32,000 nt of DNA from Acaryochloris marina MBIC11017 (GCF_000018105.1 NC_009925.1:2550001-2582000), one strand, 5' to 3'; positions 1,730-30,800 are shown, numbered from the stretch's first letter. Program-made: numbers and translations. Notes: a model not told the origin generated them from the letters alone.

Positions 1730-1836
1730 ACATTAGAGACGGAGACTTGTGAGGGGGCTGCAAACATTGATGTTTGTTGCCTCTCCAGCTTCCGCATCCT
1801 ACCTATCGTTATTTTTCGCCCCCAAAAGGAGAGGTT

Positions 1837-12793: not shown

Positions 12794-13225
12794 ATGCTCA
12801 TTTGCTCAGTTCATGCTGTCTCTTGGGCAGATTCTCTGTGTCTGCCTTGTCTATCTGTCCCAGTCCCTGCTGGGTTCCCTTCCCCAGCCGATGACCATTT
12901 ACAGAACAATTTGAATCTGCAAGAAGCGCTCATTCCTCGCCCTGCTGCGACGTTTTTGATGCGTGTCAAAGGAGATTCGATGGAAGGCTGTGGAATCTTC
13001 TCGGGGGATTTATTGATTGTGGATCGCTCCCTAACCCCCGTCGATGGGGCCGTAGTGATTGCTGTCTTAAACGGCGAGTTTACGGTGAAACAGCTGCGAT
13101 TATCGCAAAAAACAATTTTATTAGCTGCCGCCAATGCAGACTATACCCCCATCGTCGTCAAAGCCGGAATGGAATTTCAGGTGTGGGGTGTGGTCACCTA
13201 TGTGGTGCATGGGTTGCAGGTTTGA
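12794..13225 (+). CDS. umuD: UmuD-like S24 peptidase, DNA polymerase V accessory subunit
   Basis: VPAGFPSPADD aligns with E. coli UmuD VQCGFPSPAADY, giving an Ala-Gly cleavage site at 12869-12874. Catalytic Ser in VKGDSMEG and Lys in GEFTVKQL. The tail VWGVVTYVVH is like UmuD VFGVVIHVV. Confidence 0.9.
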   Translation: MLICSVHAVSWADSLCLPCLSVPVPAGFPSPADDHLQNNLNLQEALIPRPAATFLMRVKGDSMEGCGIFSGDLLIVDRSLTPVDGAVVIAVLNGEFTVKQLRLSQKTILLAAANADYTPIVVKAGMEFQVWGVVTYVVHGLQV

Positions 13226-16857: not shown

Positions 16858-18078
16858 TTAAATAATTAGCCAGGTTACTAAACCCCAAAAAGGCACGAAT
16901 CGCAGCCACCGTTTTTTAGGATTAGTTTCTACAGCACCTAGCAGAACAATCTGAAAAAGCGTAAAGAAGACAAAGTCCACACAGAAGGCAGCGGAGACCC
17001 GGTTTATCGTTACCTGAGTCCCGAAATAGTTAAGTCGCTCTGCCACAGTGCCAAATTCTGGTCCAATAAACCCAAACCAGAACAGCGCCATCCCACTCAC
17101 CAAAAACCCTATCCAACCAAAGGCCCGAGCTAAAAGCCCTTTCGAAGGCGATGGTATGTCTTCAGGGAGGGGCATGGCAGCTCTCATGGCCATATACGGA
17201 ATCATAAAAGCATTCGTCAGAAAGAGCGCCATACTCCAAATCGGCACTTTGGGTAGCTTTTGGCTACGCACATCAGCTAACAGTAAGGGCAAGAAAATAA
17301 AAATCCAAGCAATGGCAAAGTTGAAAAAGGCTTGGTCTACCGGATGAACCAGAGGCGCTTCCAGGTAGTGAATGCCTAGCATGTTAGCTAAGGGCAAGAT
17401 AAAGAAGAAGTTGAGGGACTCATTCAGCACTTCCTGCCAGGTTTCCGCTTGAATCGCCCATACTGGTTCTCCAGGCATCAGTTGTCCTGGTGGAGAGAGA
17501 AACAGGATATAAATATAGGCTCCAGCCAAAAGCCAGAGCAGTCTGGATATCCACGGCTGAGACGAATCTGGCGGGCTGGCTGAAGACTGAAGTGATGTTT
17601 CCCCAGGCTCAGCGGGTTTCAGTAGCAGCCGCACTAAGGGGGCAATCAAGCGCAGAATCAAAAATGCGCCTTTACCAGGCTTGATCACAGGTTCAACCAA
17701 ATCCCGGGCAAAGATCAGTTTTCCAGTTTTCTCAGATAGTCGGCAAAAGCTAACCCCTCGTCCATTGGGTAGGGGAATACCACCCAGCTCCACATGCCAG
17801 AGAATACCTACCGCAAGAGCATCACCTTCCGTAATGTCGTCCACCACAAATAACAAGTCTGCAGGCATCCCTTTACAAGATTCAGTGAATAGCTCCCCCA
17901 CTGCTGCTTTCCCTTGAAAAGGTATCGGAAAATTTAGGTCTTGATAACAACAGTCTGGATCAACATATTCCAGGGCTTTGGCAACATTGCGCTCATTAAT
18001 GGCCTCATACATGGCCTGAATGAGGAGATGGGCTGGGAGTGTCATGGGGTTCAGGACATAGAGGAGAACATCGGTCAT
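16858..18078 (-). CDS. NTF2/SnoaL-like domain fused to a polytopic membrane domain (hypothetical)
   Basis: 406 aa. The N-terminal ~130 aa (LIQAMYEAINERNVAKALEYVDPDCCYQD...GRGVSFCRL..GKLIFARDLVE) has the SnoaL/NTF2-like pattern. The remainder has about 6 hydrophobic helices. Confidence 0.6.
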   Translation of the reverse strand: MTDVLLYVLNPMTLPAHLLIQAMYEAINERNVAKALEYVDPDCCYQDLNFPIPFQGKAAVGELFTESCKGMPADLLFVVDDITEGDALAVGILWHVELGGIPLPNGRGVSFCRLSEKTGKLIFARDLVEPVIKPGKGAFLILRLIAPLVRLLLKPAEPGETSLQSSASPPDSSQPWISRLLWLLAGAYIYILFLSPPGQLMPGEPVWAIQAETWQEVLNESLNFFFILPLANMLGIHYLEAPLVHPVDQAFFNFAIAWIFIFLPLLLADVRSQKLPKVPIWSMALFLTNAFMIPYMAMRAAMPLPEDIPSPSKGLLARAFGWIGFLVSGMALFWFGFIGPEFGTVAERLNYFGTQVTINRVSAAFCVDFVFFTLFQIVLLGAVETNPKKRWLRFVPFWGLVTWLII

Positions 18079-18219
18079 CTGGGCAGTTGAGCAGCAGACA
18101 TACTGTCAACAAAGCCAGCCTTCTGACACTGATGCCCGCCCAAACGCTCGGCCAAGAGCGACCGACAGCTTCATTTTACTCAAGGTTAGCGAGTCCCCTC
18201 ATGCTTTATACCCTCCCTC

Positions 18220-18789
18220 TCAGAGTTCTTGAGGAACTCGTATGTCTGGGAAGGGAAACGACGAATATCGGGCAGTAACCAATTTGCCTTCTGGATTAAA
18301 ACTGATGAAGATTGCATCACAGTCTAGAAGTACGTTATGGGGGTCAACTAGATAGAGCTTTTTGGAAATACCAACTTTCTTTTCCTCCTGATTCGGCCTC
18401 CAATTCTCTTCACTGGGTAATCGGAAAGACGTACCCGCATAAGTTTGTGTAACGGCAGCTCTCACTTCTGGGAGGGTCATATCTGGATGCAGAGAAAAGT
18501 AAAAGCTCACAAAAGGCCTAACCGGTGACCAGAAGAAGAAGGTAACTAGGACTGCCAGGGGCTGAATCAGGAAAAGATAACGCCACCTTTGCCATCTAAA
18601 GGCAAACACTGTCGTCATAGAGAAGAGAAGTGAAGTTAACCATAGTAAGAACCAAAACCCGAGAGCAATTGAGTCACTCACGAGGTATATCAAGCAGCTG
18701 TAACAGATGGAGATGAGCAAAAGCCAGATAAAAAAAATTGGTGTCATCTTCGAACTCATCTCTTCAGGCTCTGATAGAGTGCCATACAA
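18220..18789 (-). CDS. hypothetical membrane protein (about 4 TM plus soluble C-terminus)
   Basis: 189-aa ORF with a hydrophobic N-terminal half. No recognised motif. Confidence 0.5.
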   Translation of the reverse strand: MYGTLSEPEEMSSKMTPIFFIWLLLISICYSCLIYLVSDSIALGFWFLLWLTSLLFSMTTVFAFRWQRWRYLFLIQPLAVLVTFFFWSPVRPFVSFYFSLHPDMTLPEVRAAVTQTYAGTSFRLPSEENWRPNQEEKKVGISKKLYLVDPHNVLLDCDAIFISFNPEGKLVTARYSSFPFPDIRVPQEL

Positions 18790-18937
18790 ATGCTATGAAA
18801 CTATCGTGCGATCGCAGCTTGTATATGCATCAGGATCAGCGCATTATGTCGACGCTATTTCCCTGAGTACCACAGCACGAATCAGCGTCTGATACCCTTT
18901 CACTCAGCTTTTTGCTAAATACTGAACCCCGCTGTTT

Positions 18938-20158
18938 TTATAGGAGAGACTGGGTGAGTTGCTCTTGCGTCGGTATATCAGCAGGCAAAAACGTTCTTAA
19001 ATCATCCTTAGTCGGTCTGGCTAAAGCAGCCAAACGGCCACATTGCATTGCAACACAACGATCAAAAAGGTTTCTCACAAAGCGGCCGTTTCCCAATTCG
19101 CCGATTTGGGTTTCATATTGTCCAATTAAATGACGCATGGACTTCAAGGTTTGTGCAGAGAGAAGATAGCCATGCTGTTCACAAATCGCTTTAAAAATAT
19201 CAGCTAACTCAGATGGGGCATAATCTTCAAAATGGATCGCTCTAGAAAACCTGGACTTTAAACCAGGGTTGGAATCAATAAAACGAGACATCTCTTCTTT
19301 ATAGCCTGCAACCACCACCACCAAGTCGTTTCTGTGGTCTTCCATCATCTTGAGGAGTGTATTGATTGCCTCTTGTCCAAAGGCATCTCCACGACCATCT
19401 GCAACCAGTGCATAAGCCTCATCAATAAAAAGCACCCCTCCTAGTGCTGATTCGATCACTTGGGTGGTTTTAGGCGCTGTTTGACCCACATATTCAGCGA
19501 CTAAATGACTTCGATCAACTTCGATAAAATGTCCTTCTGACACCACACCCAAATGTTTATAAATCTTTCCCAGCAGCCTCGCGACCGTGGTTTTGCCCGT
19601 TCCAGGATTGCCCGTGAATACTAGATGTCTTGTGATTCCAGGAGACTTGATGCCCACTTTCGCCTGCATCTGAGATACCTTGGCGATGTTGACTAACTCT
19701 TGCACTGTAGATTTAACCGTATCTAAACCCGTTAGGGCATAAAGCTGATTGAGAGCGTGTTGCAATTCCTCTTGATTACTAATTTTTTTCGTCTGATCAG
19801 GCGAAGTCTCAGCATGCTTGCTTTTTTGATTTTGTGGATTGCGATTTGTGCACTGGGGTGGCTTTGGGACTAAAGATTTTCTCCGAATTCTCTCCAAAGT
19901 CCGAACGGTTTCTTGATCCTTAGACCATTGGTATTCCAGTAAGTCTTTCAGACCAGGATTCCAACCTTTCCGAAATCCCAAGCGTCTGGCAAGTTCTTCC
20001 AATTCATCCTTTTCAAGCGGGAACTCTTGATTCAATTGTCCATAAACCCAGCCTTCCGAGAGACATAAGTGGAGTTTTTGACGAATAAGTATAGAAAGAT
20101 ATTGGTCGACGTCTTGGCGCATTGGAACGAATTTCCCCAACATTGAATTTTTAATCAC
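18938..20158 (-). CDS. AAA+ ATPase of the CbbX/SpoVK/EccA-like clade with an uncharacterised ~170-aa N-terminal region
   Basis: Walker A LVFTGNPGTGKTTVARLLG, Walker B GGVLFIDEAYAL, then FGQEAINTLLKMMEDHRNDLVVVVAGY and NPGLKSRFSRAIHFEDY, characteristic of CbbX/SpoVK-type ATPases. Confidence 0.85.
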   Translation of the reverse strand: MIKNSMLGKFVPMRQDVDQYLSILIRQKLHLCLSEGWVYGQLNQEFPLEKDELEELARRLGFRKGWNPGLKDLLEYQWSKDQETVRTLERIRRKSLVPKPPQCTNRNPQNQKSKHAETSPDQTKKISNQEELQHALNQLYALTGLDTVKSTVQELVNIAKVSQMQAKVGIKSPGITRHLVFTGNPGTGKTTVARLLGKIYKHLGVVSEGHFIEVDRSHLVAEYVGQTAPKTTQVIESALGGVLFIDEAYALVADGRGDAFGQEAINTLLKMMEDHRNDLVVVVAGYKEEMSRFIDSNPGLKSRFSRAIHFEDYAPSELADIFKAICEQHGYLLSAQTLKSMRHLIGQYETQIGELGNGRFVRNLFDRCVAMQCGRLAALARPTKDDLRTFLPADIPTQEQLTQSLL

Positions 20159-20612
20159 TTGGGATAGGGTTTATTCATCCCAGATTCATGAAAAATGTAA
20201 TGAGTCTATGCTGAACGATAGATAACACCCGAAAAATTGAGATCAGAGATTGATCGAAGAAATAGCATAATTTCTCTATAAACTCTAAATATTTGAATCA
20301 ACAAAAGAATCCATACTATTTTTTTCAGTTTGGATATAAATACTATGCTATTCATTCTCAGAAGACTGTTTTCGCCCTTGAGGCAACAGCCCAATGCCAA
20401 CAAGACAAGATCGTAAAGCGAATATTCTGGTCAATGAAATAGGCGTTAGGTGTTCGCCATTTCTAACCCATTGATTTACATATTCAATCTCTTTCTGAAT
20501 GGCCGAGCCTAGAGTTCATTTCTAGATTGCCCAATACAGGACGGCAGCGTATCAGTGTAATTTTTCAGGATTGTCTAATGGATGGAGTCGCAAAATTTTA
20601 GGCCATGCAAAT

Positions 20613-21908
20613 CTACGGCGAAGGAGTTTGCATCATGACCTTGACATTGTTATCTACTTTATCTCCAGCGCCACTGAAAATAACATCCACGGCCTTTGGA
20701 TCTTGGAGAACTGTCGCTCGAAGAAATAATGCTGTCCAAGTCCCAATCGTTTTGATTGCCAGCGCTTGAGGCATATCTTGCACCTTAGGATCCCGGATAA
20801 TAGCTGGAACCACAGCAGGCGTATTGACTGGGTTATTGGGTGCATTGCTATTCGTAATGCCAAAATGATTGGCCCCTGTGACGGATACCAGCACCTTCGT
20901 CGGATTTCCCAACTGCTGATAGGTTTCCTTTGTCTTCTCGGGAAACGAGCGCCCATCTTTTTCACCAAAGATTAAAGCGGTGGGTATCGTGTCGTTATTA
21001 ATGGGGGGAACGGGGTCACCCGTATAGGGCTTAAGGTGAGTGCCATAGAAAACAGCAGCAACCAATGCTTCTGGCTGCTTGAATTCACCATAAAGGCATT
21101 TAGGCATGGAACATCCTCCCTGAACAGCGTTTAATCCTGCAGCCCCTCCTAAAGAATGGCCTAGCAGTACCAATTGCTCCGGGTTGATGACCTCTGCCAC
21201 AGGAGAGGCAGCCGGATCTTTGATGAAATTCCAGACCTCATTGATCAGTTTCAACTCAGGGTAATACCCTGTCGTGGTTGGCGCAGGAGGTGGTACAGGC
21301 CAAAGTCTTAAGTTATTGGGAATGACGACTACAAAGCCATAGCTCGCAACCACTTTGGCATATTCGGAGTAGTGAGATTTGTCTACATTAGCGCCCTGAA
21401 GCAACAGCGCCACCGGAAAAGGCTTGGCAACCGAAGCAGAGTTGACACTTCGAGGAACAAAAATATCTGCGACATCTCCACTAGACGTAATCACCGTCTC
21501 TAACTGCTGAATCCCAGAGAAGAGGGGAGCAGGTAAGGAGGAAATTTTCAGCACCTCATCTTGTTTAGAACTCTCTATCCTGCCATCAGTTCTAAGGTCA
21601 TCTTCACCGTTATTCTTGCCGATATTTTCTCGTTCTATTTCTGCTATTACGTAGCTAGGATCTTTGCTACCAAAAGTGAAATGATGCCTATCAAACGTCC
21701 CATCAATTACACTGACAAAGTTGGCTTTTTCACTCACATTTGTATCGGTATAAAGCGTTTTCTGAGTCAAATTAGAAGCGTAAATCTGTTTGGCCAAGGC
21801 TTTCTGATGGCAGTCTCCCACTGCGAATAACGCTGATAAACCGATGCCTATGGCTCCAGGGTAAATGACAGTTAACGCGATCTTTTTATGCACAACGACA
21901 CTCTTCAA
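20613..21908 (-). CDS. alpha/beta hydrolase (chlorophyllase / PAF-acetylhydrolase-like) with N-terminal signal/anchor and ~140-aa extension
   Basis: 431 aa. Hydrophobic N-terminus. FPVALLLQGANVDKSHYSEYAKVVASYGFVVVIPN and the nucleophile elbow LLGHSLGGAAG. Confidence 0.75.
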   Translation of the reverse strand: MKSVVVHKKIALTVIYPGAIGIGLSALFAVGDCHQKALAKQIYASNLTQKTLYTDTNVSEKANFVSVIDGTFDRHHFTFGSKDPSYVIAEIERENIGKNNGEDDLRTDGRIESSKQDEVLKISSLPAPLFSGIQQLETVITSSGDVADIFVPRSVNSASVAKPFPVALLLQGANVDKSHYSEYAKVVASYGFVVVIPNNLRLWPVPPPAPTTTGYYPELKLINEVWNFIKDPAASPVAEVINPEQLVLLGHSLGGAAGLNAVQGGCSMPKCLYGEFKQPEALVAAVFYGTHLKPYTGDPVPPINNDTIPTALIFGEKDGRSFPEKTKETYQQLGNPTKVLVSVTGANHFGITNSNAPNNPVNTPAVVPAIIRDPKVQDMPQALAIKTIGTWTALFLRATVLQDPKAVDVIFSGAGDKVDNNVKVMMQTPSP

Positions 21909-22547
21909 TTAAGTGAATTAAATAATTGATGCAGAAATAAAAACCACAAAAAATGATGGTTCAATTTCTTTCAATATTGCACTTTATGGCAAGAGAAGAA
22001 AGAAGACTGGATTACCATACAGGTTCTACCTGAAAATCAATGCCTATGAGAACAGTTGTGGGTCCTCTATCGCCTATCGAGGGTCGCCACTACGATCATC
22101 AAAAGGCATAACTGCTGTAATTAGGCTTTATCAATCCCTTTTCCATGTCTATCTGGTCCATATAAACGAATGGGCCAGCAGGAACATCTTGGGTTGATCA
22201 TCCATCCACATCCCCCTCCTGAGTCCACTCTTGAAGTCGCCTTGTCTCTTGGCAGTTATGATTGACGCCAATGCCTGGCACAGAAAGATGTGCTGGAGAA
22301 TATACACGCTTGAGAAGGTATTTCTTTCCAGTCAGTACCTCTGGTCATACCGAACATGTTGCAATTAGGCCACAACCACAATTCTTCTCAAGAAAAGTTA
22401 CCGTCGGGTTTGCGCCTTCTAAAGTTCGTGCATAATACCAAAACAAAGGGAAAGCCATGCTGGGAAAGGTATTACACACTTTGCTCAGTCAACTTCCTGG
22501 ACAATGCATTAAGCCAAAAATTATTCGGTATATAGGTAAATAAGGGT

Positions 22548-23294
22548 ATGGGGCGTTACTTAATTCTCGTATATGGCATTTTCTCCTATTTGATTGGTCT
22601 GGGAGGACTGGTCTTCTTTATTCTGTTTATTGGGGGTTGGGAGTTTATGCCTGTTCATATCGACTCAGGAACGCCTGGCCCACTGGGGATTGCATTGCTG
22701 ATCAACGTCGGATTAGTGCTGCTATTCGGACTACAACATTCTGTGATGGCCCGCTCTGGATTTAAGAAAACTTGGACCAAATTGATTCCTAAAGCGGCAG
22801 AACGAAGTACCTATGTTTTGTTGTCGGGCATTATTTTGTGCCTGATCGGTCTGTACTGGCAAACTTTGCCTGGAACCCTTTGGCAGATCGATAATTCGAT
22901 TGCTCGAACCATTATTATTGCTTGCCAGCTGGTGGGTTGGGTCTTGCTGGTTCTGGCATCATTTGTGATTAACCACTTTGAATTATTTGGTTTGCAGCAG
23001 GTCTATTTCAACTTTGTGAATAAGCCAGAACCAGCCCCGAACTTTACCGATCGGTTTATCTATAAGCTGGTCCGTCATCCGATCCAACTGGGTGTTCTCG
23101 TTGGTATTTGGTTGACACCGACGATGACTATGACACATCTGATGCTATCTAGCATGATGAGCAGCTACATCTTTATTGGCTTGTACTACGAGGAGAAGGA
23201 TCTAATAGCCACTTTGGGACAAGAGTATAAAGACTATATGGAGCGGGTCTCCAAACTTCTGCCCATCCCCAAAAAAGCGACTACAGCCGAATAG
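22548..23294 (+). CDS. ICMT/PEMT-family integral membrane methyltransferase (MddA-like)
   Basis: 248 aa, polytopic. C-terminal signature ..LVRHPIQLGVLVGIW...YEEKDLIATLGQEYKDYMERVSKLLP matches the isoprenylcysteine carboxyl / phospholipid methyltransferase pattern (RHP.Y.G ... E.E..L...FG..Y..Y...V....P). Confidence 0.7.
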   Translation: MGRYLILVYGIFSYLIGLGGLVFFILFIGGWEFMPVHIDSGTPGPLGIALLINVGLVLLFGLQHSVMARSGFKKTWTKLIPKAAERSTYVLLSGIILCLIGLYWQTLPGTLWQIDNSIARTIIIACQLVGWVLLVLASFVINHFELFGLQQVYFNFVNKPEPAPNFTDRFIYKLVRHPIQLGVLVGIWLTPTMTMTHLMLSSMMSSYIFIGLYYEEKDLIATLGQEYKDYMERVSKLLPIPKKATTAE

Positions 23295-23436
23295 TGTTGG
23301 CGTTTAAGCTTTCAGTGACATTCAGTAAGAAAGACTAGGCATCTGTTGCCTACAGCAAGGCCATCCCCATGTGCCTTGCCCTTGTTTATGGGACGATAGC
23401 TTTAGGGCTGTGGATATCAAGTTTGGAGTTGGAACA

Positions 23437-23715
23437 ATGAGTCAATTCGACGTTGTTAACAAAGAATTTTATGCAATTTACGAGCGGGACAGTGGTAAAC
23501 CCCTGGTTCGCCGGATCAAAGCAGAAGATCACGATAATGCTTGGGACGTTGCTGAGGCTTTGGGGCAGAATCTTGTGGATGTCGTAGATATCCCCCCAAC
23601 AGGCGATGTCGAGTTTGCAGAGGACGACATTGCCCCTAAAACGTGGCAAATGGATCGGCAGGACTTAAGCGTTGAGTGGAACGAACGGATTGCTAACAAG
23701 ATTGATGGGGCATAA
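23437..23715 (+). CDS. small acidic hypothetical protein
   Basis: The ORF is open from 23371. The ATG at 23437 follows GGAGTTGGAACA (SD-like GGAG). 92 aa, no recognised motif. Confidence 0.45.
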   Translation: MSQFDVVNKEFYAIYERDSGKPLVRRIKAEDHDNAWDVAEALGQNLVDVVDIPPTGDVEFAEDDIAPKTWQMDRQDLSVEWNERIANKIDGA

Positions 23716-23770
23716 CTTTCGATGAGGAATGTTCTTCCCATCCACCCCTACGCCCCATTAATAAGCGAGC

Positions 23771-23807
23771 AAAAAAAGGCTCCCTTTCACACTGTGGTGA
23801 GGGGAGC
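23771..23807 (-). terminator. candidate Rho-independent terminator (minus strand)
   Basis: The minus-strand RNA reads GCUCCCCUCAC-CACAGU-GUGAAAGGGAGC then C-UUUUUUU. It has a 6-bp GC-rich basal stem (GCUCCC/GGGAGC) plus a 3-bp distal stem, followed directly by a U7 tract. No U tract follows it on the plus strand. Confidence 0.45.
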
Positions 23808-24060
23808 GGTAACTACTCATTCTTGGATTATACGAGGAATTAGGAGTGAGATGATTTCTGATCCACTGCGATTCCCCATTCTTGAACAGAACACAAAGTT
23901 GTAAGCTCTATTCTGATAAGAACGGTTTAGGTTCTTGATGTTGTTCAGAAAAGCCACAATAGGCTCTCTTACAAAGGCCGCCCACCCTCTAGGGTCTTTG
24001 TCTATTGGTAGGAACAATCATACAGATATGACTTTTACCCAAAGGCAACTTTGCAGCATC

Positions 24061-24312
24061 CTAATAATCTAGCAATTGATTCACAGTCACATCATAAATG
24101 CGTTTGAGGTGATAGCCAGGCACCATAATCATCCAGTTCACTCCCATATCAATGGACTGGTGATGGGCATAGCAAAGCGATGTGCGGCACTCAGAGTATT
24201 GTGCACGCGCTTTGCTATCCCTTGACATTTCCTCTGCCGTAGATATTTTATGGCGTTTAGGATGGACTACAGTCTCATTTGGGGTAAGGGTCAGTTGATG
24301 TTGCGTACGCAT
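24061..24312 (-). CDS. hypothetical ORF, doubtful (possible gene remnant)
   Basis: 83-aa ORF divergent from the DUF4157 gene, overlapping its probable start by 15 nt. No motif recognised. Confidence 0.2.
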   Translation of the reverse strand: MRTQHQLTLTPNETVVHPKRHKISTAEEMSRDSKARAQYSECRTSLCYAHHQSIDMGVNWMIMVPGYHLKRIYDVTVNQLLDY

Positions 24313-26859
24313 GCTTCTCCGTTAGAAAAAAAGCCTTCGCAGATAGTCACCCGTTCTAAAGTAGCGAATTTAACGCAATCAACAGCACCTGTTCCTCCTA
24401 CCGTTCAGGCCAAGTCCAATGAAGAAGGTCTAGCTGAATGGGCAGCCCAGCTACAGAAGTGGGATCGATTGGGAACACCCTGGATGGATAAGGCTCCAAA
24501 TTTATCTGGGGAGTTAGTACAGCCATGGATTCAGCAGAAGGTAACACTTAGTCCGCCAAGAGATATACATCAACAAGAGGTGGATAGAGGCGCTAAGAAA
24601 GCTGTGCAACCTATCCATTCACCTGTTTGCAATAACAGCTCCAATGCATTGTCTGGTGAGCCTGTTCAGCAAAAGCCTATCGATACTAACATCACACAAC
24701 GATTTAGTCCGGTGGAAGGAGGGGAGATTTCTGCAGATCTTGAAGCTTCAATTCAGCAAGCCCGCTCTAGTGGGCGTCCGTTGGATACCAATATTCGCAG
24801 ATCCATGGAGCAATCATTTGGAGCTGACTTTAGCAATGTGCGCGTTCATACCGATAGTCAAGCCGATCGTTTCAACCGCGACTTACACTCTCGAGCCTTC
24901 ACCACAAAAGAAGATTTATTTTTTAAACAGGGTGAATATCAACCAGGTAATACAGACGGTCAAACGCTATTGGCCCATGAGCTAACGCATGTATTGCAGC
25001 AAAAAGGCACATCTTTGCAGACCGGCAACTCGATACAACGAGATGATGAAAAACCCAACAAACTAAGTGAGAAGGAAAAGTATAACGAAAAACAAAATAA
25101 AAAAATTAATGAATATCGGAACAAAAAAGGGGAATTACATTCGAAAAACTTTAGCTCCAAGCTGAAAGGTGGTTTTCTAGGGGACATGGAATCCAAGATG
25201 GTAGGCATTGTCAAAGATGTCCAAGATAAAGAGGGATCAATTCAGCAAGCAGATAATTATATCCATGGAGATGCCGCAGTTAATGCATTTCTGCTACAGA
25301 AACTCTTAGAGTCAAAAGAAAAGAAAGACCAACAGATTGTTGACACATTTGCTAAGCAAGTTCTGACAAAGAAATATAGAAAAAGCTTGCTATTTAACGA
25401 TAAGCTTGATAGCTCATTTGTTTTATCTAATAAAAATAAGTCTCTAGAAACTGCGCGAGTCAGCAAGAAAAGAGTTGAAGATACGGCTGGTGACCGAGTC
25501 ATTATTGAAATGTACTATAACCAGATCGAAAAATTACGTAAGGGAAAACATACTCAAAAGGATAAAGAGAAAGCTGCAGATATTTATAAATTCACAAAAA
25601 ATCGCCAATTTGACATTACTAAGAGAGCAGAAGCTCAGAAAGAAGAACGAAACAAATTGGAGGATGAAGGACGAATCTCAACAGCTGTAGTGCGAGCCCT
25701 TCAAGCAACACAGCATGCAGTATATGGCACAGTGTTAAAGGTTCTAACGCTTGGATTTGTCACCACCAAAAAGAATCGTGACAAACGAGGTTGGGTGTCA
25801 GATAAAGATTTCACGCTGGATTTAGAAACAGGTACATCAGTTGAAGAAGAATTGAACTCGAAAAAGAGAAATTTCGACTTCCAGTCTCCTGTGGAAAAAA
25901 TACGCGAGATTGTGAATGAGTATAAAGCCAAAGTAGCGGATAGGAAAGGGCTTGGCAAAGCTAAGTTGTTTTCTACTCTCTCTCTAGGGTGTGAAGTATT
26001 AAAGCGGTTTTTGGGACTTGTACAAGGCGTGTTTACCTCTGCTGCATTATGGGCCGCTGGACTAAGTTTGATTCCAGGTGCTCAGATTCTCGCTGTTATG
26101 GCTGCATTCTGTAGCACAGTCTCCTATTATCTTGGCTTAATTATGACGAGCATTAGTTCTTTAAGAACAATGCTAGACGGATTGGTCCAGCTTCTCAATA
26201 AAAATCCACTACTATTTGCTCAACTTTCTGGAGAAACGCTAAAGTCTGGCCTGAATACTGTTACAGAATCACTAGCCTACGGCACTGGTACATTAGCCAA
26301 TTTTGGCCGGGAACAGATTACGGGTCAGAACCGCTTTGACACTGAAGGGATCTACGATCCGAAGTCAACCTTTAACAATCACAAGGATTTAAATACTAGT
26401 CAAGGCCCAGACACATTCAGTAGTAAAGGGCTAGGTGATAAAAGTGTCGTTGGCAGCACTGTGGGGGTCGGCAGTGGAATCATGGGAATTAATGCAGGTG
26501 GAACCGCTGGCATCCAATCTACAGATGATAATGATATGACCTACACCCAGACTGTGAATAAGAATCGTAGAATTGGGAAGAAATCAAAAATGACTTCTAA
26601 TACTTCCAATAAAGAGCTTCAATCCATTTTGGAAGCATATGAGACGACTAAAGAAAAAGCACAGAAGACAGGATCAGAATTTACTAAGGCAGTGGTTAAG
26701 TTGTCATCTGAGAAGCCACCCAAGTCAAACGTCAAGAAGAATACTGAAATACCAAAAGATGACAGTGAAAATCTGAAGAGACTACCTCTAATTAGCAAAC
26801 TAAAGAATGAAGTACTTGGCGATTTCAAAGATGGAATTGAGGAATTAGGAAAGGCTTAG
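24298..26859 (+). CDS. DUF4157 (HExxH zincin-like) domain protein with Lys-rich helical region, TM hairpin and glycine-zipper tail; polymorphic-toxin/effector-like
   Basis: SSGRPLDTNIRRSMEQSFGADFSNVRVHTDSQADRFNRDLHSRAFTTKEDLFFKQGEYQPGNTDGQTLLAHELTHVLQQ is a near-textbook DUF4157 signature (HExxH at 24976-24990). The ORF is open from 24250, but the ATG at 24298 gives MLRTHASPLEKKP, the usual N-terminus style of these proteins. Two adjacent hydrophobic helices at 26011-26163. GSTVGVGSGIMGINAGGTAG at 26452-26511. Confidence 0.85.
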   Translation: MLRTHASPLEKKPSQIVTRSKVANLTQSTAPVPPTVQAKSNEEGLAEWAAQLQKWDRLGTPWMDKAPNLSGELVQPWIQQKVTLSPPRDIHQQEVDRGAKKAVQPIHSPVCNNSSNALSGEPVQQKPIDTNITQRFSPVEGGEISADLEASIQQARSSGRPLDTNIRRSMEQSFGADFSNVRVHTDSQADRFNRDLHSRAFTTKEDLFFKQGEYQPGNTDGQTLLAHELTHVLQQKGTSLQTGNSIQRDDEKPNKLSEKEKYNEKQNKKINEYRNKKGELHSKNFSSKLKGGFLGDMESKMVGIVKDVQDKEGSIQQADNYIHGDAAVNAFLLQKLLESKEKKDQQIVDTFAKQVLTKKYRKSLLFNDKLDSSFVLSNKNKSLETARVSKKRVEDTAGDRVIIEMYYNQIEKLRKGKHTQKDKEKAADIYKFTKNRQFDITKRAEAQKEERNKLEDEGRISTAVVRALQATQHAVYGTVLKVLTLGFVTTKKNRDKRGWVSDKDFTLDLETGTSVEEELNSKKRNFDFQSPVEKIREIVNEYKAKVADRKGLGKAKLFSTLSLGCEVLKRFLGLVQGVFTSAALWAAGLSLIPGAQILAVMAAFCSTVSYYLGLIMTSISSLRTMLDGLVQLLNKNPLLFAQLSGETLKSGLNTVTESLAYGTGTLANFGREQITGQNRFDTEGIYDPKSTFNNHKDLNTSQGPDTFSSKGLGDKSVVGSTVGVGSGIMGINAGGTAGIQSTDDNDMTYTQTVNKNRRIGKKSKMTSNTSNKELQSILEAYETTKEKAQKTGSEFTKAVVKLSSEKPPKSNVKKNTEIPKDDSENLKRLPLISKLKNEVLGDFKDGIEELGKA

Positions 26860-26869
26860 CATTAAGTGA

Positions 26870-27826
26870 ATGAGAGTTATTGAACCTGAAATTAATCTTT
26901 CCTCTGGCTTGGTCACCTTACGCTTCCCAATCACAGACTTAGAGTTAAAAGAAATTAGACATCAACAGATTTTTAATTTTCAAGAGGTTCTATTCTCAAC
27001 AGACATACCCACCACTTCATTTCAGGAAGCTTTCATAACAATTATTTCCGAATCAAAGAATTTGGATGGATATGGCGAGGATACTAGCACCAATGCAAAT
27101 ATTGAACTTGAATTGGAATCTGAGAAATGGCAGATCTTAAGCCTAGAAATTGATGGTATCGTCTACCCTACGTTTTATTTTCTGAGAACGCAGGGTCAGC
27201 TTCAAGGTTCTTTAATTCAAGCAATGATGCATTTTGCGGTTGATCGAGCTACTCAGGATGAGAACTTATCTATCCAGTCTAAAACCCTAGTCAGTGAAGC
27301 AGTGTCTGGCTTTCTTTCTCTTGGAATCGATGGACTCAGCGATGAACATAGGTTAGAGAAAAGTCTTAAACAGGTACTTTCTAGAATTAGTCATGTATAC
27401 ACTCACGATCAATATCAGTCAGTCATTGAACAGTTCTTAAAGGCAAAGGATATTCCATTTGATCGTGAGGAAGACTCCTACTATTTTTCTGTCAATACTT
27501 CAGAATGTCGTTGGGGAGTAGAGCTAAACTTACTCGACGATACTGAAGGTATAATCCTATATTCCTATTTTCAGGTAGAGCTTGACGAAGGTAGTGTGGA
27601 TAGTCTATTGAGAGATCTCAACTCAATTAATCAATCTCTCTTGCTCGGAAACTTTCAATTTAGTATTGAAGAGCACGTACTCTATTATCGGAACCATCTT
27701 AATCTCCAGGTCTATGATTTAGAGAAAAGTCTAGACAACTTATTTCAAGATAACTACGACTCCATTCAGAGCATTTCCTTACTTATAAAAGACAAGTATC
27801 ACAATCAAATCAAAATTATTGATTGA
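26870..27826 (+). CDS. hypothetical protein with YbjN / T3SS-chaperone-like C-terminal domain (candidate chaperone or immunity partner)
   Basis: 318 aa, starting 10 nt after the DUF4157 gene stop. The C-terminal region DSYYFSVNTSECRWGVELNLLDDTEGIILYSYFQVELDEGSVDSLLRDLNSINQSLLLGNFQFSIEEHVLYYRNHL follows the YbjN-family pattern (f.f......w.v.v....... l.l......v.....ll..lN.lN....g.f......l.). Confidence 0.6.
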   Translation: MRVIEPEINLSSGLVTLRFPITDLELKEIRHQQIFNFQEVLFSTDIPTTSFQEAFITIISESKNLDGYGEDTSTNANIELELESEKWQILSLEIDGIVYPTFYFLRTQGQLQGSLIQAMMHFAVDRATQDENLSIQSKTLVSEAVSGFLSLGIDGLSDEHRLEKSLKQVLSRISHVYTHDQYQSVIEQFLKAKDIPFDREEDSYYFSVNTSECRWGVELNLLDDTEGIILYSYFQVELDEGSVDSLLRDLNSINQSLLLGNFQFSIEEHVLYYRNHLNLQVYDLEKSLDNLFQDNYDSIQSISLLIKDKYHNQIKIID

Positions 27827-27884
27827 AGTTATCAATTAATGCCAGCCACAACAAGGTGTCGTTCAACATAAAAGCACTGCTCGT

Positions 27885-30800
27885 TTATGCTGCAGGTTGC
27901 AAGCCAGTTTCAGATATTATGCGAGCAGTTTTCCGATGAATGAGCAGAAAGATACAGGGCACAAAATATAAAGCAAGAATGGTAGCCCCCAATAAGCCCC
28001 CCGCAATCGTAATCGCCAAAGGTGGCCAAAATCCCGTCTCATCCATCATCAGGGGCACTAAGCCCACAATGGTGGTCAGTGTCGTTGCCACCACATGTCG
28101 AGCAGAGGACAATACCACCCGCTCAATCGCTCGTCGCGATCCCTGATAGGCCCGTTCATCCTCTCGCAGAGCGGCTAACACCACAATCGAATCATTGATC
28201 GCTAAACCGATTAAACCCAACATACCCAAAATCGCGGTAAAGCCAAAAATAGACTGAAATGCCCATAGGGCAAAGGCTCCCAACCCGATACTAAGCAGTG
28301 CAATCAGGCCAATGAGACCTGCCAGCAAAAACGAGTTAAAGGATAAGACAAGGGTCGCGGTCATCAAAATCACTAACAAGCCAACAGTGGCTAATAAATT
28401 CCCCACTGCACTTCCACGAGCATCCGCTTCGCCGCCATAGGTCAAGGAATAGCCAGGTGGGAGTTGAAACTCGCTCTGTTCTAGTCGCGTCTGGAACTGT
28501 TTGAGTACCGTATCGGGCAGGGCTCCTGCTTGCAAATAGCCTTCCACCGTATTGAACCGTTGACCATCCCGGCGGGTAATGGTGGCGAGGTTGGGTACTA
28601 GATTTATGTCTGCGATCGCACTCAACGGTACCTGCCCATCTTGGCTCCCCAGCAACTCCAGAGAGGTCACCGAGGATAAATCCGCCCGATCCGTATCGGA
28701 CAGGCGCACCCGTACGGGTAAATCTTCCGTGGATTCCAGGAGTGAACCACCCGTATTGCCATCCAAATAAGCATTGAGCTGACGGGCAATAGCTTCATTA
28801 CTCAACCCCACCCGTCGAGCCTGGATTTCATCCACATCTAAGGCCAGTTTCGGCAGGGCTTCATCAATCACCGCCCGCGTTTGCACCACCTCTGGTTCTT
28901 GGGCCAAGAGGGTGCGGAGTTCATTGCCCAACTGCCGCAGAGTTTCCATATCGGGACCAAAGACTTCAATCTCAATCGGCGCACCAAAGGGAGGGCCTTG
29001 TTCCAACTGTTTGACCAAAATCTGCGCCTGGGGAAAGGCGGCATCCAGTTCCATCTGTAAGGTCTGAATCGTCTGACTGAGATTTTTAGTGGAGGCCAGC
29101 TGGACAATCCCCTGGGCAAAATCCGGGACATTGGTACGGATGCTGTTGATGTTGTAGAAAAAGCGCGGCGCACTTTCGCCAATAAACCACTGGACTTCCG
29201 CCACTTCAGCATGGGCTAGCATCCGATCCCGCAGATCACGCACGGTTTCTGTGGTTTGGGTAATTGTAGAGGAGGTGGGCATTTCCACCTGAATTTGGAT
29301 TTGGTCCCGATTGGTGGGTGGGAAAAACTGCTGGGGTAGGGAGGCAAACTGACTAAAGCCCACCACAGGCAACAGCAGGGATAGGCCAATCCCCAAAATC
29401 GGCTTGGCTAAGGTGAGCCGCAGCAGATGCCGAAAGCCCTTAGATAGAGCTGGGCTAGACACCCCTTTATGCAACCAGCGAGGCCCTTGAGTGCCAGCCT
29501 GACCAACGCCAATAATTGCGGTTAGAGCTGCAATGATCGTCAGGGACACGGCCAGAGAGCTTAAGAGAGCCAGGATAACCGTTAAACCAATCGTGCCAAT
29601 AAATTCCCCGGTACCGCCTTTGGACGTGGCAATGGGGACAAAGGCAAATACGGTGGTCAGGGTCGAGGCCAGCAGCGGAATGCCCAGATGCTGGACAGTT
29701 TCACGCACGGCAATCGCACCTCGTAACCCCTCCCGCAATCGATGCTGAACTTCATCCACAACAATAATGGCGTTATCAATCAGCAATCCCAGGGCAATAA
29801 TCAAGCCCGTAATCGACATCTGATGGAGGGGAATCCCCAGTCCTTGCATCCAGCCAAACACCGCCAGCGTGACCAGGGGTAAGGCCGTGCCCACAATCAG
29901 AGCTGCCCGCCATCCCAGCATCACTACGGAAATGCCAATCACCAAGACCGAACTCACCACCAGATTGGTAATTACCCCGTTCAGCCGCTGACGAACATAC
30001 TGACTTTGCTCTTGGATCACCTCCACACTCATCCCGTCCGACAGATTGGCCTGAAACTCTTGGATCTGCTGACGAGCGAGCTGCGACCACTGATCGACTC
30101 GCTCTTGAGATTCGACCGTGGCGGAGAGGGTAATGCCTGGCTTACCGTTGATCAGGGTGAGGCTATCAAGGGGAGCGCGGATGCCTTTGGTGACCTGGGC
30201 AATATCCTGCAGTTGGGTCACCTGTCCTGCATCCCCCAATTGGATCGGAATCGTCTTAATTCGAGCCAGGGTTTCCAGTTGGGTATCCACTTCTAGCAAA
30301 AACTCATCTGCCTCGCCCCGTAAAGTCCCTGCTGAAACCTTGGCATCACTGGCCTGCAATTGCCGTGCCACTTCAGCCGGGGTTAATCCCAAATTCACCA
30401 GCTCAGCCTGGTTAATCTCCACCAGAATTTCTTCCTGGGGGTCACCAAATACCTCCACTTTGTCCGTCCCTGGAATGCCGCGCAGTCGGTCTTCCAGCCC
30501 TGCCGCCACCCGCGTCAAAATCGTGTAGTTGGGGTCACCTTCCAAATCCCAGGTCAAGGCCACAATTAAGGCCGAAGCTTTGAGGTCACTCTGGTCAAAC
30601 TCTGGCTTTAGAGTATCGGGGGGAAGGGCTGGGATCGTATCTTCCACCTTGCTCCGTACCTGAGCCCAGATCGGATCCACATCTGGAACCGCATCACTCA
30701 GTTCCACCACCACCACGGACACTCCCAAACTGGAGGTGGAGTCAATTTCCTCAATCTCTTCGATTTCCTGTAGCTCCGTCTCAATCCGTTCTGAGACCAG

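What the first reader, a model, noticed from the sequence alone, without database searches (positions are those of the whole stretch)
24298..27826. Orphan two-gene DUF4157 effector-like module with no secretion or injection machinery nearby
What the sequence shows:
- An ~850-aa protein carries an almost canonical DUF4157 zincin-like domain (HELTH at 24976-24990).
- Its N-terminal leader has repeated xQxK motifs (VQAK, IQQK, VQQK).
- After the domain comes a ~330-aa extremely Lys/Glu-rich helical region, then a two-helix hydrophobic hairpin and a glycine-zipper segment.
- 10 nt downstream is a 318-aa gene with a YbjN/T3SS-chaperone-like C-terminus.
- The pair is markedly AT-rich. Hand counts of G+C: 13/60 at 25081-25140 and 21/60 at 27001-27060, against 32/60 at 29521-29580 in the RND gene.
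- The pair lies in a HIP1-free stretch.

Established knowledge: DUF4157 is typically the N-terminal module of polymorphic toxins and cargo of extracellular contractile injection systems, with variable C-terminal toxic domains.

Inference: no eCIS, T6SS or other delivery genes are in this window, and I do not recognise the C-terminal part as a described toxin family. The pair may therefore be an uncharacterised membrane-targeting effector with a chaperone or immunity partner.
Basis: partly seen in the sequence, partly recalled or inferred. Interest (0 to 1): 0.78.

Follow-up and report, generated by a model that had tools for sequence, protein, structure and literature searches.

The report
Distal injection-system cargo with chaperone-like partner
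The two genes are a remotely encoded cargo protein, and its conserved helper, for a phage-tail-like injection machine whose sheath, tube, cap and loading-ATPase genes lie elsewhere on the same Acaryochloris marina chromosome, so the pair is an ordinary kind of system carrying an undescribed membrane-inserting payload.

Summary
Every sequence-level observation holds: DUF4157/eCIS_core domain (E 1.7e-31), HELTH, xQxK leader motifs, K/E-rich helices, one hydrophobic hairpin, Gly-rich segment, a YbjN-like downstream gene, and low GC.

The pair is 100% identical to A. marina ABW27548.1 and a 'YbjN domain-containing protein'. It is orphan only locally. The same chromosome encodes a contractile injection system (CIS): sheath ABW25357.1, tube ABW25358.1, cap ABW25352.1 and AAA+ ATPase ABW25349.1.

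Cargo genes beside that ATPase share ORF A's leader plus DUF4157 from residue 1 (47% identity, E 4e-64). At least 20 other cargo clusters with different C-termini share it too.

The ~600-aa C-terminal region is one conserved, unannotated module with about 22 representatives, mostly Bacteroidota. The ORF B homologue accompanies it in all 13 complete loci. Two of those loci lie beside CIS genes.

ORF B's C-terminal domain has the YbjN/T3SS class-I chaperone fold.

Best reading: a horizontally acquired payload-plus-partner cassette fused to the resident CIS loading leader. The payload probably inserts into membranes and the partner probably acts as a chaperone; immunity is not excluded.

It is a new member of a known kind, of moderate interest.

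The parts
24222..24249 (+). Promoter-like site (TTGACA-16-TATTTT) about 50 nt upstream of the 24298 start codon
   Evidence: 10 of 12 matches. The number of such sites in the region is no higher than in shuffles, so this is weak evidence.
24298..26859 (+). ORF A, 853 aa: leader, DUF4157 domain and C-terminal payload. It equals A. marina ABW27548.1 / WP_012163007.1.
   Evidence: 100% identity.
24298..24777 (+). N-terminal leader, aa 1-160, with [IVLM]Q[RAQK][KR] motifs at aa 36, 78 and 123. It is the putative system-specific loading sequence.
   Evidence: Shared at 44-57% identity by at least 20 cargo clusters with other C-termini. Shared with CIS-adjacent cargo of A. marina. Motif enrichment. 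Composition is 61% disorder-promoting residues.
24778..25011 (+). DUF4157 / eCIS_core zincin-like domain, aa 161-238, with HELTH at 24976-24990
   Evidence: (E 1.7e-31).
25045..26856 (+). C-terminal payload module, aa 250-853. It is one conserved, unannotated unit of about 600 aa.
   Evidence: Alignments A2 and A3. About 22 representatives each carry the whole unit. No Pfam, PDB or fold match. GC 0.393.
25768..25833 (+). Nearly invariant 'KKNRDKRGW...DFTLDLETG' segment, aa 491-512. Its C-terminal part overlaps a predicted beta-hairpin (model strands correspond to ORF A aa 504-508 and 513-517).
   Evidence: Invariant columns. Strands in the AlphaFold model (low confidence).
26008..26154 (+). 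Two-helix hydrophobic hairpin, aa 571-619, with turn 'SLIPGAQ'
   Evidence: It is the only region with family-mean KD above 1.2, and its hydrophobicity is conserved in 20 of 21 representatives.
26395..26532 (+). Gly-rich segment, aa 700-745, 24% Gly
26870..27826 (+). ORF B, 318 aa: the conserved partner. It equals the A. marina 'YbjN domain-containing protein'.
   Evidence: 100%. A homologue is adjacent in 13 of 13 complete loci. It co-diverges with the payload, r 0.84, Mantel p 2e-4.
27407..27799 (+). YbjN / T3SS class-I chaperone-like domain of ORF B, aa 180-310
   Evidence: AlphaFold pLDDT 70-87 with alpha-beta3-alpha-beta2-alpha topology. Foldseek hits: YbjN 6vu7 (E 2.7e-4, TM 0.74), SicP, ExsC, SycH, CesT and VecA.

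Best explanation
ORF A is a cargo (effector) of the contractile injection system (CIS) that Acaryochloris marina encodes elsewhere on its chromosome. ORF B is its dedicated accessory protein.

**Proposed steps (all inferred unless marked shown).**
1. The roughly 160-aa leader, probably disordered, addresses the protein to the CIS. The leader is shared with the cargo genes next to the CIS loading ATPase (sharing is shown).
2. The Afp15-like AAA+ ATPase then unfolds the cargo and loads it into the tube. This rests on analogy with AlgoCIS.
3. The DUF4157 zincin-like domain travels with the cargo. Its role is open: processing or refolding.
4. The 600-aa C-terminal module is the payload. It has long amphipathic K/E-rich helices around a single conserved hydrophobic helical hairpin and no conserved catalytic His or Cys. 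It therefore most likely inserts into a target-cell membrane, as a pore-former, a membrane disrupter or a membrane-anchored effector.
5. ORF B is a cytosolic protein with a T3SS class-I chaperone/YbjN fold (fold is shown). It most likely binds the payload in the producer cell and keeps the hydrophobic hairpin soluble and loading-competent until the ATPase strips it off.

**Origin.** The payload-plus-partner cassette was acquired horizontally, probably from a low-GC Bacteroidota-like lineage. It was joined just after the HExxH domain to a resident leader-DUF4157 module.
For: **Shown.**
- The architecture of leader, DUF4157 and variable C-terminal region is the one demonstrated for AlgoCIS cargo Cgo1/Cgo2. 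There the N-terminal region is needed for loading and DUF4157 is dispensable (bioRxiv 10.64898/2026.05.27.728243).
- DUF4157 is the signature domain of eCIS toxins (PMC8213781; PMC11297309).
- Anabaena CIS effectors Alr3311/3312 carry DUF4157 (PMC8894136).
- The same genome has CIS genes. Sheath ABW25357.1, tube ABW25358.1, cap ABW25352.1 and AAA+ ATPase ABW25349.1 all lie on the 6,503,724-bp MBIC11017 chromosome.
- The CIS locus can be read in strain MBIC10699, which carries an identical ORF A (BDM82285.1).
- CIS-adjacent cargo shares ORF A's leader from residue 1: 47% identity, E 4e-64, and 46% identity, E 8e-53.
- The leader is shared by at least 20 clusters with different C-termini.
- In Acaryochloris contigs L023 and L024, leader-bearing cargo lies directly after the ATPase.
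- Payload-family members lie beside a sheath, a Pvc16-type cap and other DUF4157 cargo in L017 (cyanobacterium) and L020 (Bacteroidota). L017 also has the AAA+/WHD ATPase and a GerE regulator.
- The partner is adjacent in 13 of 13 complete loci, usually with a gap of 55 nt or less.
- The partner has a chaperone fold.
- The hydrophobic hairpin is conserved.
- GC falls from 0.466 in the leader to 0.393 and 0.368 in the cassette. The closest relatives lie on contigs of 0.34-0.37 GC.
Against: - No experiment or structure shows that ORF A is loaded, secreted or toxic.
- The C-terminal model is poor (pLDDT 53.6), so membrane insertion rests on hydropathy alone.
- The chaperone role rests only on fold class. 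A gene directly downstream of a polymorphic toxin is more often an immunity gene. Other Acaryochloris cargo genes are followed by CdiI_5 or Barstar immunity genes.
- Baseplate, spike and tape-measure genes were not seen in the 10 kb I could read beyond the tube genes.
- A published survey scored Acaryochloris 0 of 2 genomes as eCIS-positive. The machine may therefore be split or incomplete.
- Some family members lack DUF4157 and have no CIS gene within 7-10 kb.
Confidence: 0.65

Rival explanations
1. The cargo reading is the same, but ORF B is an immunity protein. It would neutralise the membrane-active payload in the producer and its kin, rather than acting as a loading chaperone.
For: - The polymorphic-toxin logic fits: a constant leader plus DUF4157 with swapped C-termini.
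- Neighbouring Acaryochloris cargo genes are followed by recognised immunity genes, CdiI_5 and Barstar.
- ORF B is strictly linked to the payload and co-diverges with it, while evolving faster (15-97% against 26-100% identity). That pattern is typical of immunity proteins.
Against: - ORF B has no signal peptide or transmembrane segment. Immunity to membrane-inserting toxins is normally provided by membrane proteins (established knowledge of pore-forming colicins and T6SS membrane effectors).
- Its confident domain has the T3SS class-I chaperone/YbjN fold.
- At 290-318 aa it is large for an immunity protein.
Confidence: 0.22
2. The protein is not injected. It would act in the producer's own membranes, for example as a holin-like lysis or release factor for the CIS or as a membrane-remodelling protein, with ORF B as its cytosolic regulator. 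Alternatively it leaves the cell by a CIS-independent route.
For: - The pair is not in the CIS locus.
- Family members without DUF4157 sit in sugar-utilisation loci with no CIS gene nearby.
- eCIS release needs lysis, and eCIS toxins have been suggested to contribute to it (PMC8213781 discussion).
- Anabaena CIS is linked to ghost-cell formation (PMC8894136).
- YbjN-family proteins are also described as regulators (6vu7 and AmyR).
Against: - The leader is homologous from residue 1 to that of CIS-adjacent cargo.
- The payload family is mostly fused to DUF4157 and occurs inside cargo islands beside CIS genes.
- There is no signal peptide, and no T1SS logic: the adjacent RND/HlyD genes are on the opposite strand and of the AcrB type.
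Confidence: 0.09
3. The pair is a stranded, non-functional remnant of horizontal transfer that is no longer used.
For: Low GC, a HIP1-free context and a patchy distribution.
Against: - Both ORFs are intact.
- ORF A is 100% identical in two A. marina strains and is seen on 12 contigs. Further full-length 853-855-aa cluster members include one 98% identical.
- The HExxH motif is intact, and a promoter-like site lies upstream.
Confidence: 0.04

Closest known systems
AlgoCIS cargo proteins Cgo1/Cgo2 (Algoriphagus machipongonensis)
   Same: Three-part layout: a disordered N-terminal loading sequence, a DUF4157 domain and a variable C-terminal effector domain. The N-terminal regions are similar among cargos of one system, as found here among Acaryochloris cargos.
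   Different: [quoted passage not shown] ORF A is encoded in a separate locus. The C-terminal regions are unrelated. No YbjN-like partner appears in the passages of that preprint I read, and no indexed paper combines YbjN with contractile injection.
Anabaena thylakoid-anchored CIS (tCIS) and its putative effectors Alr3311/Alr3312
   Same: Cyanobacterial CIS with two cap proteins (Cis16A/B), matching the two Pvc16_N genes of 182 and 436 aa in A. marina. Its DUF4157 effectors are detected in purified particles.
   Different: The Anabaena effectors are adjacent to a contiguous 15-gene cluster. The thylakoid anchor (Cis13 transmembrane domain) is reported only in filamentous cyanobacteria, and Acaryochloris is unicellular (own knowledge). 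The A. marina baseplate genes were not located.
eCIS-associated toxins (EATs) with DUF4157 (Geller 2021; Danov 2024)
   Same: N-terminal DUF4157 with an unannotated C-terminal part, as in 983 of 1130 predicted DUF4157 EATs. A long region follows the domain, and small accessory genes lie downstream.
   Different: 88% of known EATs lie within ten genes of the operon, and this one does not. Its payload family has not been tested or named.
T3SS class-I chaperones (SicP, SycE, SycH, CesT, ExsC, VecA) and the YbjN family
   Same: The fold of ORF B aa 180-310 matches (Foldseek probability 1.0, TM 0.65-0.74). ORF B is encoded next to its presumed client.
   Different: ORF B is 318 aa with an additional N-terminal half of unknown fold. 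T3SS chaperones are about 130-aa dimers. Cyanobacteria have no T3SS (own knowledge). Client binding is untested.
T6SS Eag/DUF1795 chaperones of effectors with transmembrane helices (from my own knowledge, not tested here)
   Same: The proposed logic is the same: a cytosolic chaperone shields hydrophobic helices of a CIS-delivered effector before loading.
   Different: Eag proteins have a different fold family, bind N-terminal prePAAR transmembrane helices and load onto VgrG. Here the hairpin is in the payload and the cargo is presumed to travel in the tube lumen.
Pore-forming colicins and T6SS membrane-disrupting effectors (VasX, Tse4, Ssp6; own knowledge)
   Same: A hydrophobic helical hairpin embedded in amphipathic helices, and no obvious catalytic residues.
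   Different: No sequence or fold similarity was detected. The partner is not a membrane immunity protein.

Membership tests
DUF4157 / eCIS_core (PF13699) | Profile match above Pfam's gathering score | tested here: met
   108.7 bits against a cutoff of 22, E 1.7e-31, profile positions 1-78 of 79.
DUF4157 / eCIS_core (PF13699) | HExxH zinc-binding motif | tested here: met
   HELTH at aa 227-231, nt 24976-24990.
CIS cargo / eCIS-associated toxin | N-terminal region ahead of DUF4157 that is system-specific and shared with other cargo of the same system | tested here: met
   47% and 46% identity to the two cargo genes next to the A. marina CIS ATPase, from residue 1. Shared by at least 20 clusters.
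CIS cargo / eCIS-associated toxin | N-terminal region intrinsically disordered | tested here: inconclusive
   Only composition was examined: 61% disorder-promoting residues and no hydrophobic segment. No disorder predictor or structure model was run on aa 1-160.
CIS cargo / eCIS-associated toxin | Encoded within about ten genes of a CIS operon (true of 88% of known EATs) | tested here: not met
   No CIS gene in the 32-kb window. The window shares only leader DNA with the CIS loci. Protein accession numbers lie about 2,000-2,200 apart.
CIS cargo / eCIS-associated toxin | Host genome encodes a CIS | tested here: met
   Sheath, tube, cap and AAA+ ATPase of MBIC11017 and MBIC10699. Baseplate, spike and tape-measure genes were not located.
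CIS cargo / eCIS-associated toxin | Physically loaded into the tube and delivered; toxic in a target cell | not testable with these tools
   Needs mass spectrometry of purified particles and expression or delivery assays.
YbjN / T3SS class-I chaperone-like (PF10722 and its clan) | Profile match above the gathering score | tested here: met
   31.8 bits against a cutoff of 22, E 1.9e-7, aa 185-279.
YbjN / T3SS class-I chaperone-like (PF10722 and its clan) | Alpha-beta3-alpha-beta2-alpha fold | tested here: met
   Model pLDDT 70-87 over aa 180-310. Foldseek hits to 6vu7, 1jyo, 3kxy, 4gf3 and 5z38.
YbjN / T3SS class-I chaperone-like (PF10722 and its clan) | Binds its client effector and keeps it secretion-competent | not testable with these tools
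Polymorphic toxin with immunity pair | Constant N-terminal trafficking part with interchangeable C-terminal domains | tested here: met
   same leader and DUF4157, with C-termini diverging right after HExxH. The payload is also found behind other N-termini.
Polymorphic toxin with immunity pair | The downstream gene is a cognate immunity protein | tested here: inconclusive
   The gene is conserved, adjacent and co-diverging. However, it has a chaperone-type fold and no membrane segment.
Pore-forming colicin-like toxins | Sequence or fold similarity to a known pore-forming domain | tested here: not met
   No Pfam hit. No PDB sequence hit. Best Foldseek E-value 0.12, to generic long-helix proteins (on a low-confidence model).
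Pore-forming colicin-like toxins | Hydrophobic helical hairpin within amphipathic helices | tested here: met
   aa 571-619, conserved in 20 of 21 representatives.

The most novel reading that the evidence does not exclude
ORF B founds a class of dedicated cargo chaperones for contractile injection systems. It would be a T3SS class-I-like domain, fused to a second domain, that shields a hydrophobic hairpin and hands the cargo to the AAA+ loader. The 600-aa payload would be a new family of membrane-inserting (pore-forming) CIS effectors. The cassette would move as a unit between Bacteroidota and Cyanobacteria and plug into whatever leader the recipient's system reads.
Probability: 0.35. Interest if true: 0.6.

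Novelty: new member of a known kind. Interest (0 to 1): 0.4.

Why it matters
**Cargo is not confined to the operon.** Cargo of a contractile injection system can be recognised far from the operon by its system-specific leader. Operon-centred effector surveys therefore undercount cargo. They can also miss whole systems: Acaryochloris was scored eCIS-negative although it has sheath, tube, cap and ATPase genes.

**A testable effector family.** The analysis defines an unannotated 600-aa payload family with an obligate T3SS-chaperone-like partner. This is a concrete candidate for how hydrophobic effectors are kept soluble before being loaded into a CIS tube. That question bears on engineering these particles for protein delivery.

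**Limits.** The biology is otherwise an expected variation on DUF4157 cargo. Both genes are already annotated by domain in NCBI.

Tried and rejected
**Searches on the C-terminal module that found nothing usable.**
- PDB sequence search with the family profile gave only a chance hit at E 0.43.
- Foldseek of the AlphaFold model gave nothing below E 0.1, only generic filament proteins, and the model is poor.
- A Pfam scan of 12 family members gave no consistent hit. The weak Pput2613 deaminase match (E 0.03-0.04, below the cutoff, in 1 of 12 members) was rejected.
- NCBIfam gave nothing for either protein.

**Candidate machinery in the window, rejected.**
- The AAA ATPase at 18938-20158 shares only 29% identity with a CIS ATPase over the AAA core. 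It has AAA_lid_6 and no winged-helix domain.
- The adjacent RND/HlyD genes are of the AcrB type, on the opposite strand.

**Context checks that did not help.**
- Acaryochloris plasmid paralogues have no CIS gene within 20 kb.
- A sheath tblastn against plasmids placed no Acaryochloris record among the best hits. The system is chromosomal.
- I first took the published survey (Acaryochloris 0 of 2 genomes with eCIS) as support for a true orphan. Searches then contradicted it.

**Tool failures.**
- Look-ups of P0014 and P0412 were not on record.
- The Chen 2019 supplement is not held.
- No paper mentions both YbjN and contractile injection.
- No tRNA or Rfam element is present in the window.

Full report
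**1. Observation check**

The region holds two co-directional ORFs 10 nt apart. ORF A runs 24298..26859 (853 aa; an in-frame ATG at 24250 would give 869 aa). ORF B runs 26870..27826 (318 aa).

- ORF A matches Pfam PF13699 (eCIS_core, the former DUF4157) at aa 161-238 with E 1.7e-31.
- ORF B matches PF10722 (YbjN) at aa 185-279 with E 1.9e-7. Both matches are above the curated cutoffs.
- The xQxK motifs are at aa 36, 78 and 123. That is three observed against 0.09 expected from shuffles.
- K+E make up 26% of aa 250-550. The only strongly hydrophobic stretch is aa 571-619. aa 700-745 is 24% Gly.
- GC is 0.393 in the C-terminal module and 0.368 in ORF B. The 17 other genes in the window average 0.495 with sd 0.037.
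- The HIP1-free stretch is real but spans 9.8 kb (18809-28611), so it is not specific to the pair.
- The window holds no tRNA, no Rfam element and no injection or secretion genes. The neighbours are an AcrB/HlyD efflux pair on the opposite strand, an NnrU-like protein, a hydrolase and a CbbX/SpoVK-type AAA ATPase.

**2. Identity**

- ORF A is 100% identical to ABW27548.1 / WP_012163007.1 / BDM82285.1, annotated 'eCIS core domain-containing protein [Acaryochloris marina]'. It lies on the 6,503,724-bp MBIC11017 chromosome.
- ORF B is 100% identical to the A. marina 'YbjN domain-containing protein'.
- Paralogue alignments starting at residue 1, and DNA similarity starting at 24288, support the 24298 start.

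**3. The protein is a chimera of two evolutionary units**

*The leader unit (aa 1-245).* This is the leader plus DUF4157.
- It is shared at 44-57% identity with at least 20 other protein clusters. These include proteins named as Acaryochloris marina MBIC11017 and Acaryochloris sp. CCMEE 5410, and their sequences diverge completely just after HExxH.
- The conserved leader reads roughly M-R-T-H..KK..IQAKSNEEGLAEW.AQ.QKW.R.GTPWMDKVPN.SGEL.QPWIQRKLT.G.PGDKYEQEADRVA.
- The [IVLM]Q[RAQK][KR] motif class occurs at 0.96 per 100 aa upstream of DUF4157, against 0.07 downstream, in 111 homologues. That is 183 observed against 13.9 in shuffles. These sequences are related, so this is a family feature and not a count of independent events.

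*The payload unit (aa ~250-853).* This is a single conserved module.
- A search of 1.84 billion representatives found about 22 clusters at 50% identity. Each carries the whole ~600-aa unit.
- Most clusters place it behind a Bacteroidota-type DUF4157. Some place it behind other N-termini, or behind short N-termini without DUF4157.
- It has no Pfam, NCBIfam or PDB relative and no fold match.
- Its AlphaFold model is confident only for the long helices at module residues 10-220 (ORF A aa ~259-469), with overall pLDDT 53.6.
- The hydrophobic hairpin is conserved in position and hydropathy in 20 of 21 representatives.
- No His or Cys is invariant, which argues against an enzyme. This last point is inference.

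**4. The partner is obligate**

- Thirteen loci carry a complete payload gene that is not cut by a contig end. Every one has an ORF B homologue of 290-318 aa next to it. In 11 loci it follows within 55 nt or overlaps. It lies 229 nt downstream in L008 and upstream in L020. A fourteenth locus is truncated.
- Pairwise identities of payload and partner co-vary (r 0.84, Mantel p 2e-4).
- The partner family was found only in this context.
- The ORF B model has a confident C-terminal domain, aa 180-310, with pLDDT 70-87 and alpha-beta3-alpha-beta2-alpha topology.
- Its best Foldseek matches are E. coli YbjN, AmyR and the T3SS class-I chaperones SicP, ExsC, SycH, VecA and CesT (E from 2.7e-4, TM up to 0.74).
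- The N-terminal half is not confidently modelled.
- ORF B has no hydrophobic segment.

**5. The delivery machine exists, but elsewhere**

*Other genomes.* A scan of one genome per species with the payload-only alignment found eight loci.
- In L017 (a marine cyanobacterial MAG) the payload gene and its partner lie beside a sheath gene, a GerE response regulator, a Pvc16-type cap, an AAA+/winged-helix ATPase and a second DUF4157-ADP-ribosyltransferase cargo.
- In L020 (Bacteroidota) they lie beside a sheath and a cap gene, with another DUF4157 gene downstream.

*Acaryochloris.*
- Two leader-sharing paralogues, P0011 and P0024, lie directly after tube, sheath, cap, two-component regulator, cap and AAA+ ATPase genes. 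Their contigs have flanking genes at least 90% identical to A. marina proteins.
- Exact-sequence cluster look-ups then showed that MBIC11017 itself encodes the sheath (ABW25357.1), a tube protein (ABW25358.1, AM1_0272), a DUF4255/Pvc16 cap (ABW25352.1, AM1_0266) and the 664-aa ATPase (ABW25349.1). All are on the same chromosome as ORF A.
- Identical proteins occur in strain MBIC10699 (BDM80251-80260), which also holds an identical ORF A.
- The MBIC10699 locus was read directly (AP026075.1, 3.546-3.586 Mb). In order it holds an IRK channel gene, a TPR protein, a 683-aa DUF4157 cargo, a 543-aa ORF, an IS1 transposase, a 672-aa DUF4157 cargo, the AAA+/WHD ATPase, two small ORFs, a 436-aa cap, a response regulator and a histidine kinase. 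On the other strand follow a 182-aa cap, the sheath, three tube genes, small ORFs and DUF6760.
- The two cargo genes next to the ATPase share ORF A's leader and DUF4157: 47% identity from residue 1 with E 4e-64, and 46% with E 8e-53.
- Apart from about 300 nt of leader-coding DNA, the window shares nothing with these loci.
- Accession numbers place ORF A about 2,000-2,200 genes away. This distance is inferred from accession order.

**6. Comparison with the literature**

- DUF4157 is the signature of eCIS-associated toxins. It usually sits at the N-terminus with a variable C-terminal toxin (PMC8213781).
- 88% of known EATs lie within ten genes of the operon, and most DUF4157 EATs have no other annotated domain (PMC11297309).
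- In AlgoCIS the disordered N-terminal region is required for loading, DUF4157 is dispensable, and N-terminal regions resemble each other only within one system (bioRxiv 10.64898/2026.05.27.728243).
- The Anabaena CIS has two cap proteins and two DUF4157 effectors (PMC8894136). The A. marina locus likewise has two Pvc16_N genes.
- Geller et al. list Acaryochloris as 0 of 2 genomes with eCIS, which contradict. A likely reason is that no baseplate, spike or tape-measure gene follows the tube genes in the 10 kb I could read. A Pseudanabaena plasmid shows the same split look.
- Whether A. marina has a complete machine therefore remains open.

**7. Mechanism**

*Shown.* The domain content, the leader shared with CIS-adjacent cargo, CIS genes in the same genome, the payload-partner linkage, the chaperone-type fold, the conserved hydrophobic hairpin and the compositional break.

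*Inferred.*
- The leader addresses ORF A to the CIS ATPase and tube.
- The payload inserts into a target membrane through its hairpin.
- ORF B keeps the payload soluble and loading-competent, by analogy with T3SS class-I chaperones, which mask membrane-localisation regions. T6SS Eag chaperones are a further analogue (own knowledge).
- The cassette came by horizontal transfer from a low-GC lineage and was recombined behind a resident leader-DUF4157 module. Its closest relatives are on contigs of 0.34-0.37 GC, including a Chitinophaga MAG. The CIS-adjacent cargo shows the same drop from leader to C-terminal part, 0.458 to 0.312.
- The main alternative is that ORF B is an immunity protein. These tools cannot exclude it.

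**8. Verdict**

'No delivery machinery' is true only of the window.

This is a distal member of the known class of DUF4157 CIS cargo. It carries an undescribed payload family and an unusual chaperone-like partner. Novelty: new member of a known kind. Interest: moderate (0.4).

Noticed in passing
window 1067-5039: Three adjacent co-directional genes: a VWA-domain protein (220 aa), a PP2C phosphatase (290 aa) and a 798-aa protein with C-terminal WD40 repeats. The trio looks like a vWA/PP2C signalling or conflict-type module.
   Followed up: no
window 16858-20158 (- strand): A CbbX/SpoVK-type AAA ATPase (AAA + AAA_lid_6, 406 aa) lies next to a 189-aa ORF with no Pfam family match and a 406-aa SnoaL-like protein. 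It shares only 29% identity with a CIS ATPase over the AAA core and has no winged-helix domain, so it is not part of the injection system.
   Followed up: partly
window 12794-14487: A 143-aa ORF overlaps a Y-family DNA polymerase gene (IMS, IMS_C, DUF4113), arranged like a UmuD/UmuC pair. Low-GC patches flank it at about 10.5-12 kb and 14.5-15.5 kb.
   Followed up: no
window 18809-28611: A 9.8-kb stretch has no HIP1 (GCGATCGC) site, although the window holds 13. It covers the AAA ATPase, hydrolase and NnrU-like genes as well as the pair. Any foreign-DNA signal is therefore broader than the two genes.
   Followed up: partly
L029 (A. marina MBIC10699 chromosome AP026075.1, 3564098-3585798) and L031 (Pseudanabaena plasmid): The CIS locus has two cap genes, a sheath, three tube genes and DUF6760. 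No baseplate, spike or tape-measure gene lies in the 10 kb read beyond the tubes; a kinase/PBP-like 731-aa gene follows instead. The Pseudanabaena plasmid looks split in the same way. This may explain why Geller et al. 2021 scored Acaryochloris as 0 of 2 genomes with eCIS.
   Followed up: partly
L025 17366-18210 and L012 8344-9210: Transposase genes (IS1; DDE_Tnp_1) sit between or next to Acaryochloris DUF4157 cargo genes. On the CCMEE 5410 plasmid a cargo gene is followed by a CdiI_5 immunity gene and lies near a 4,296-aa RHS toxin.
   Followed up: no
P0003, P0127, P0128, P0140, P0141, P0143, P0144 (proteins): Many members of the payload family carry a further conserved, unannotated module between the N-terminal region and the payload ('..FGAKFK.FFG..TFT.LK..V.KYN...WL.KH..'). 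It is absent from the A. marina protein.
   Followed up: no
L001-L007 (lake metagenome contigs, Bacteroidota-like): Payload-plus-partner pairs without DUF4157 start with 'MWFFNKKSKS'. They sit between a sodium:solute symporter gene and a glycoside hydrolase family 2 gene in a sugar-utilisation locus, with no CIS gene in the 6-10 kb read on either side.
   Followed up: partly
Genome-contig scan: The one-genome-per-species scan did not return an A. marina locus, although MBIC11017 and MBIC10699 carry the gene. Either the species representative is a strain without the cassette (a strain-variable island) or the scan missed it.
   Followed up: no
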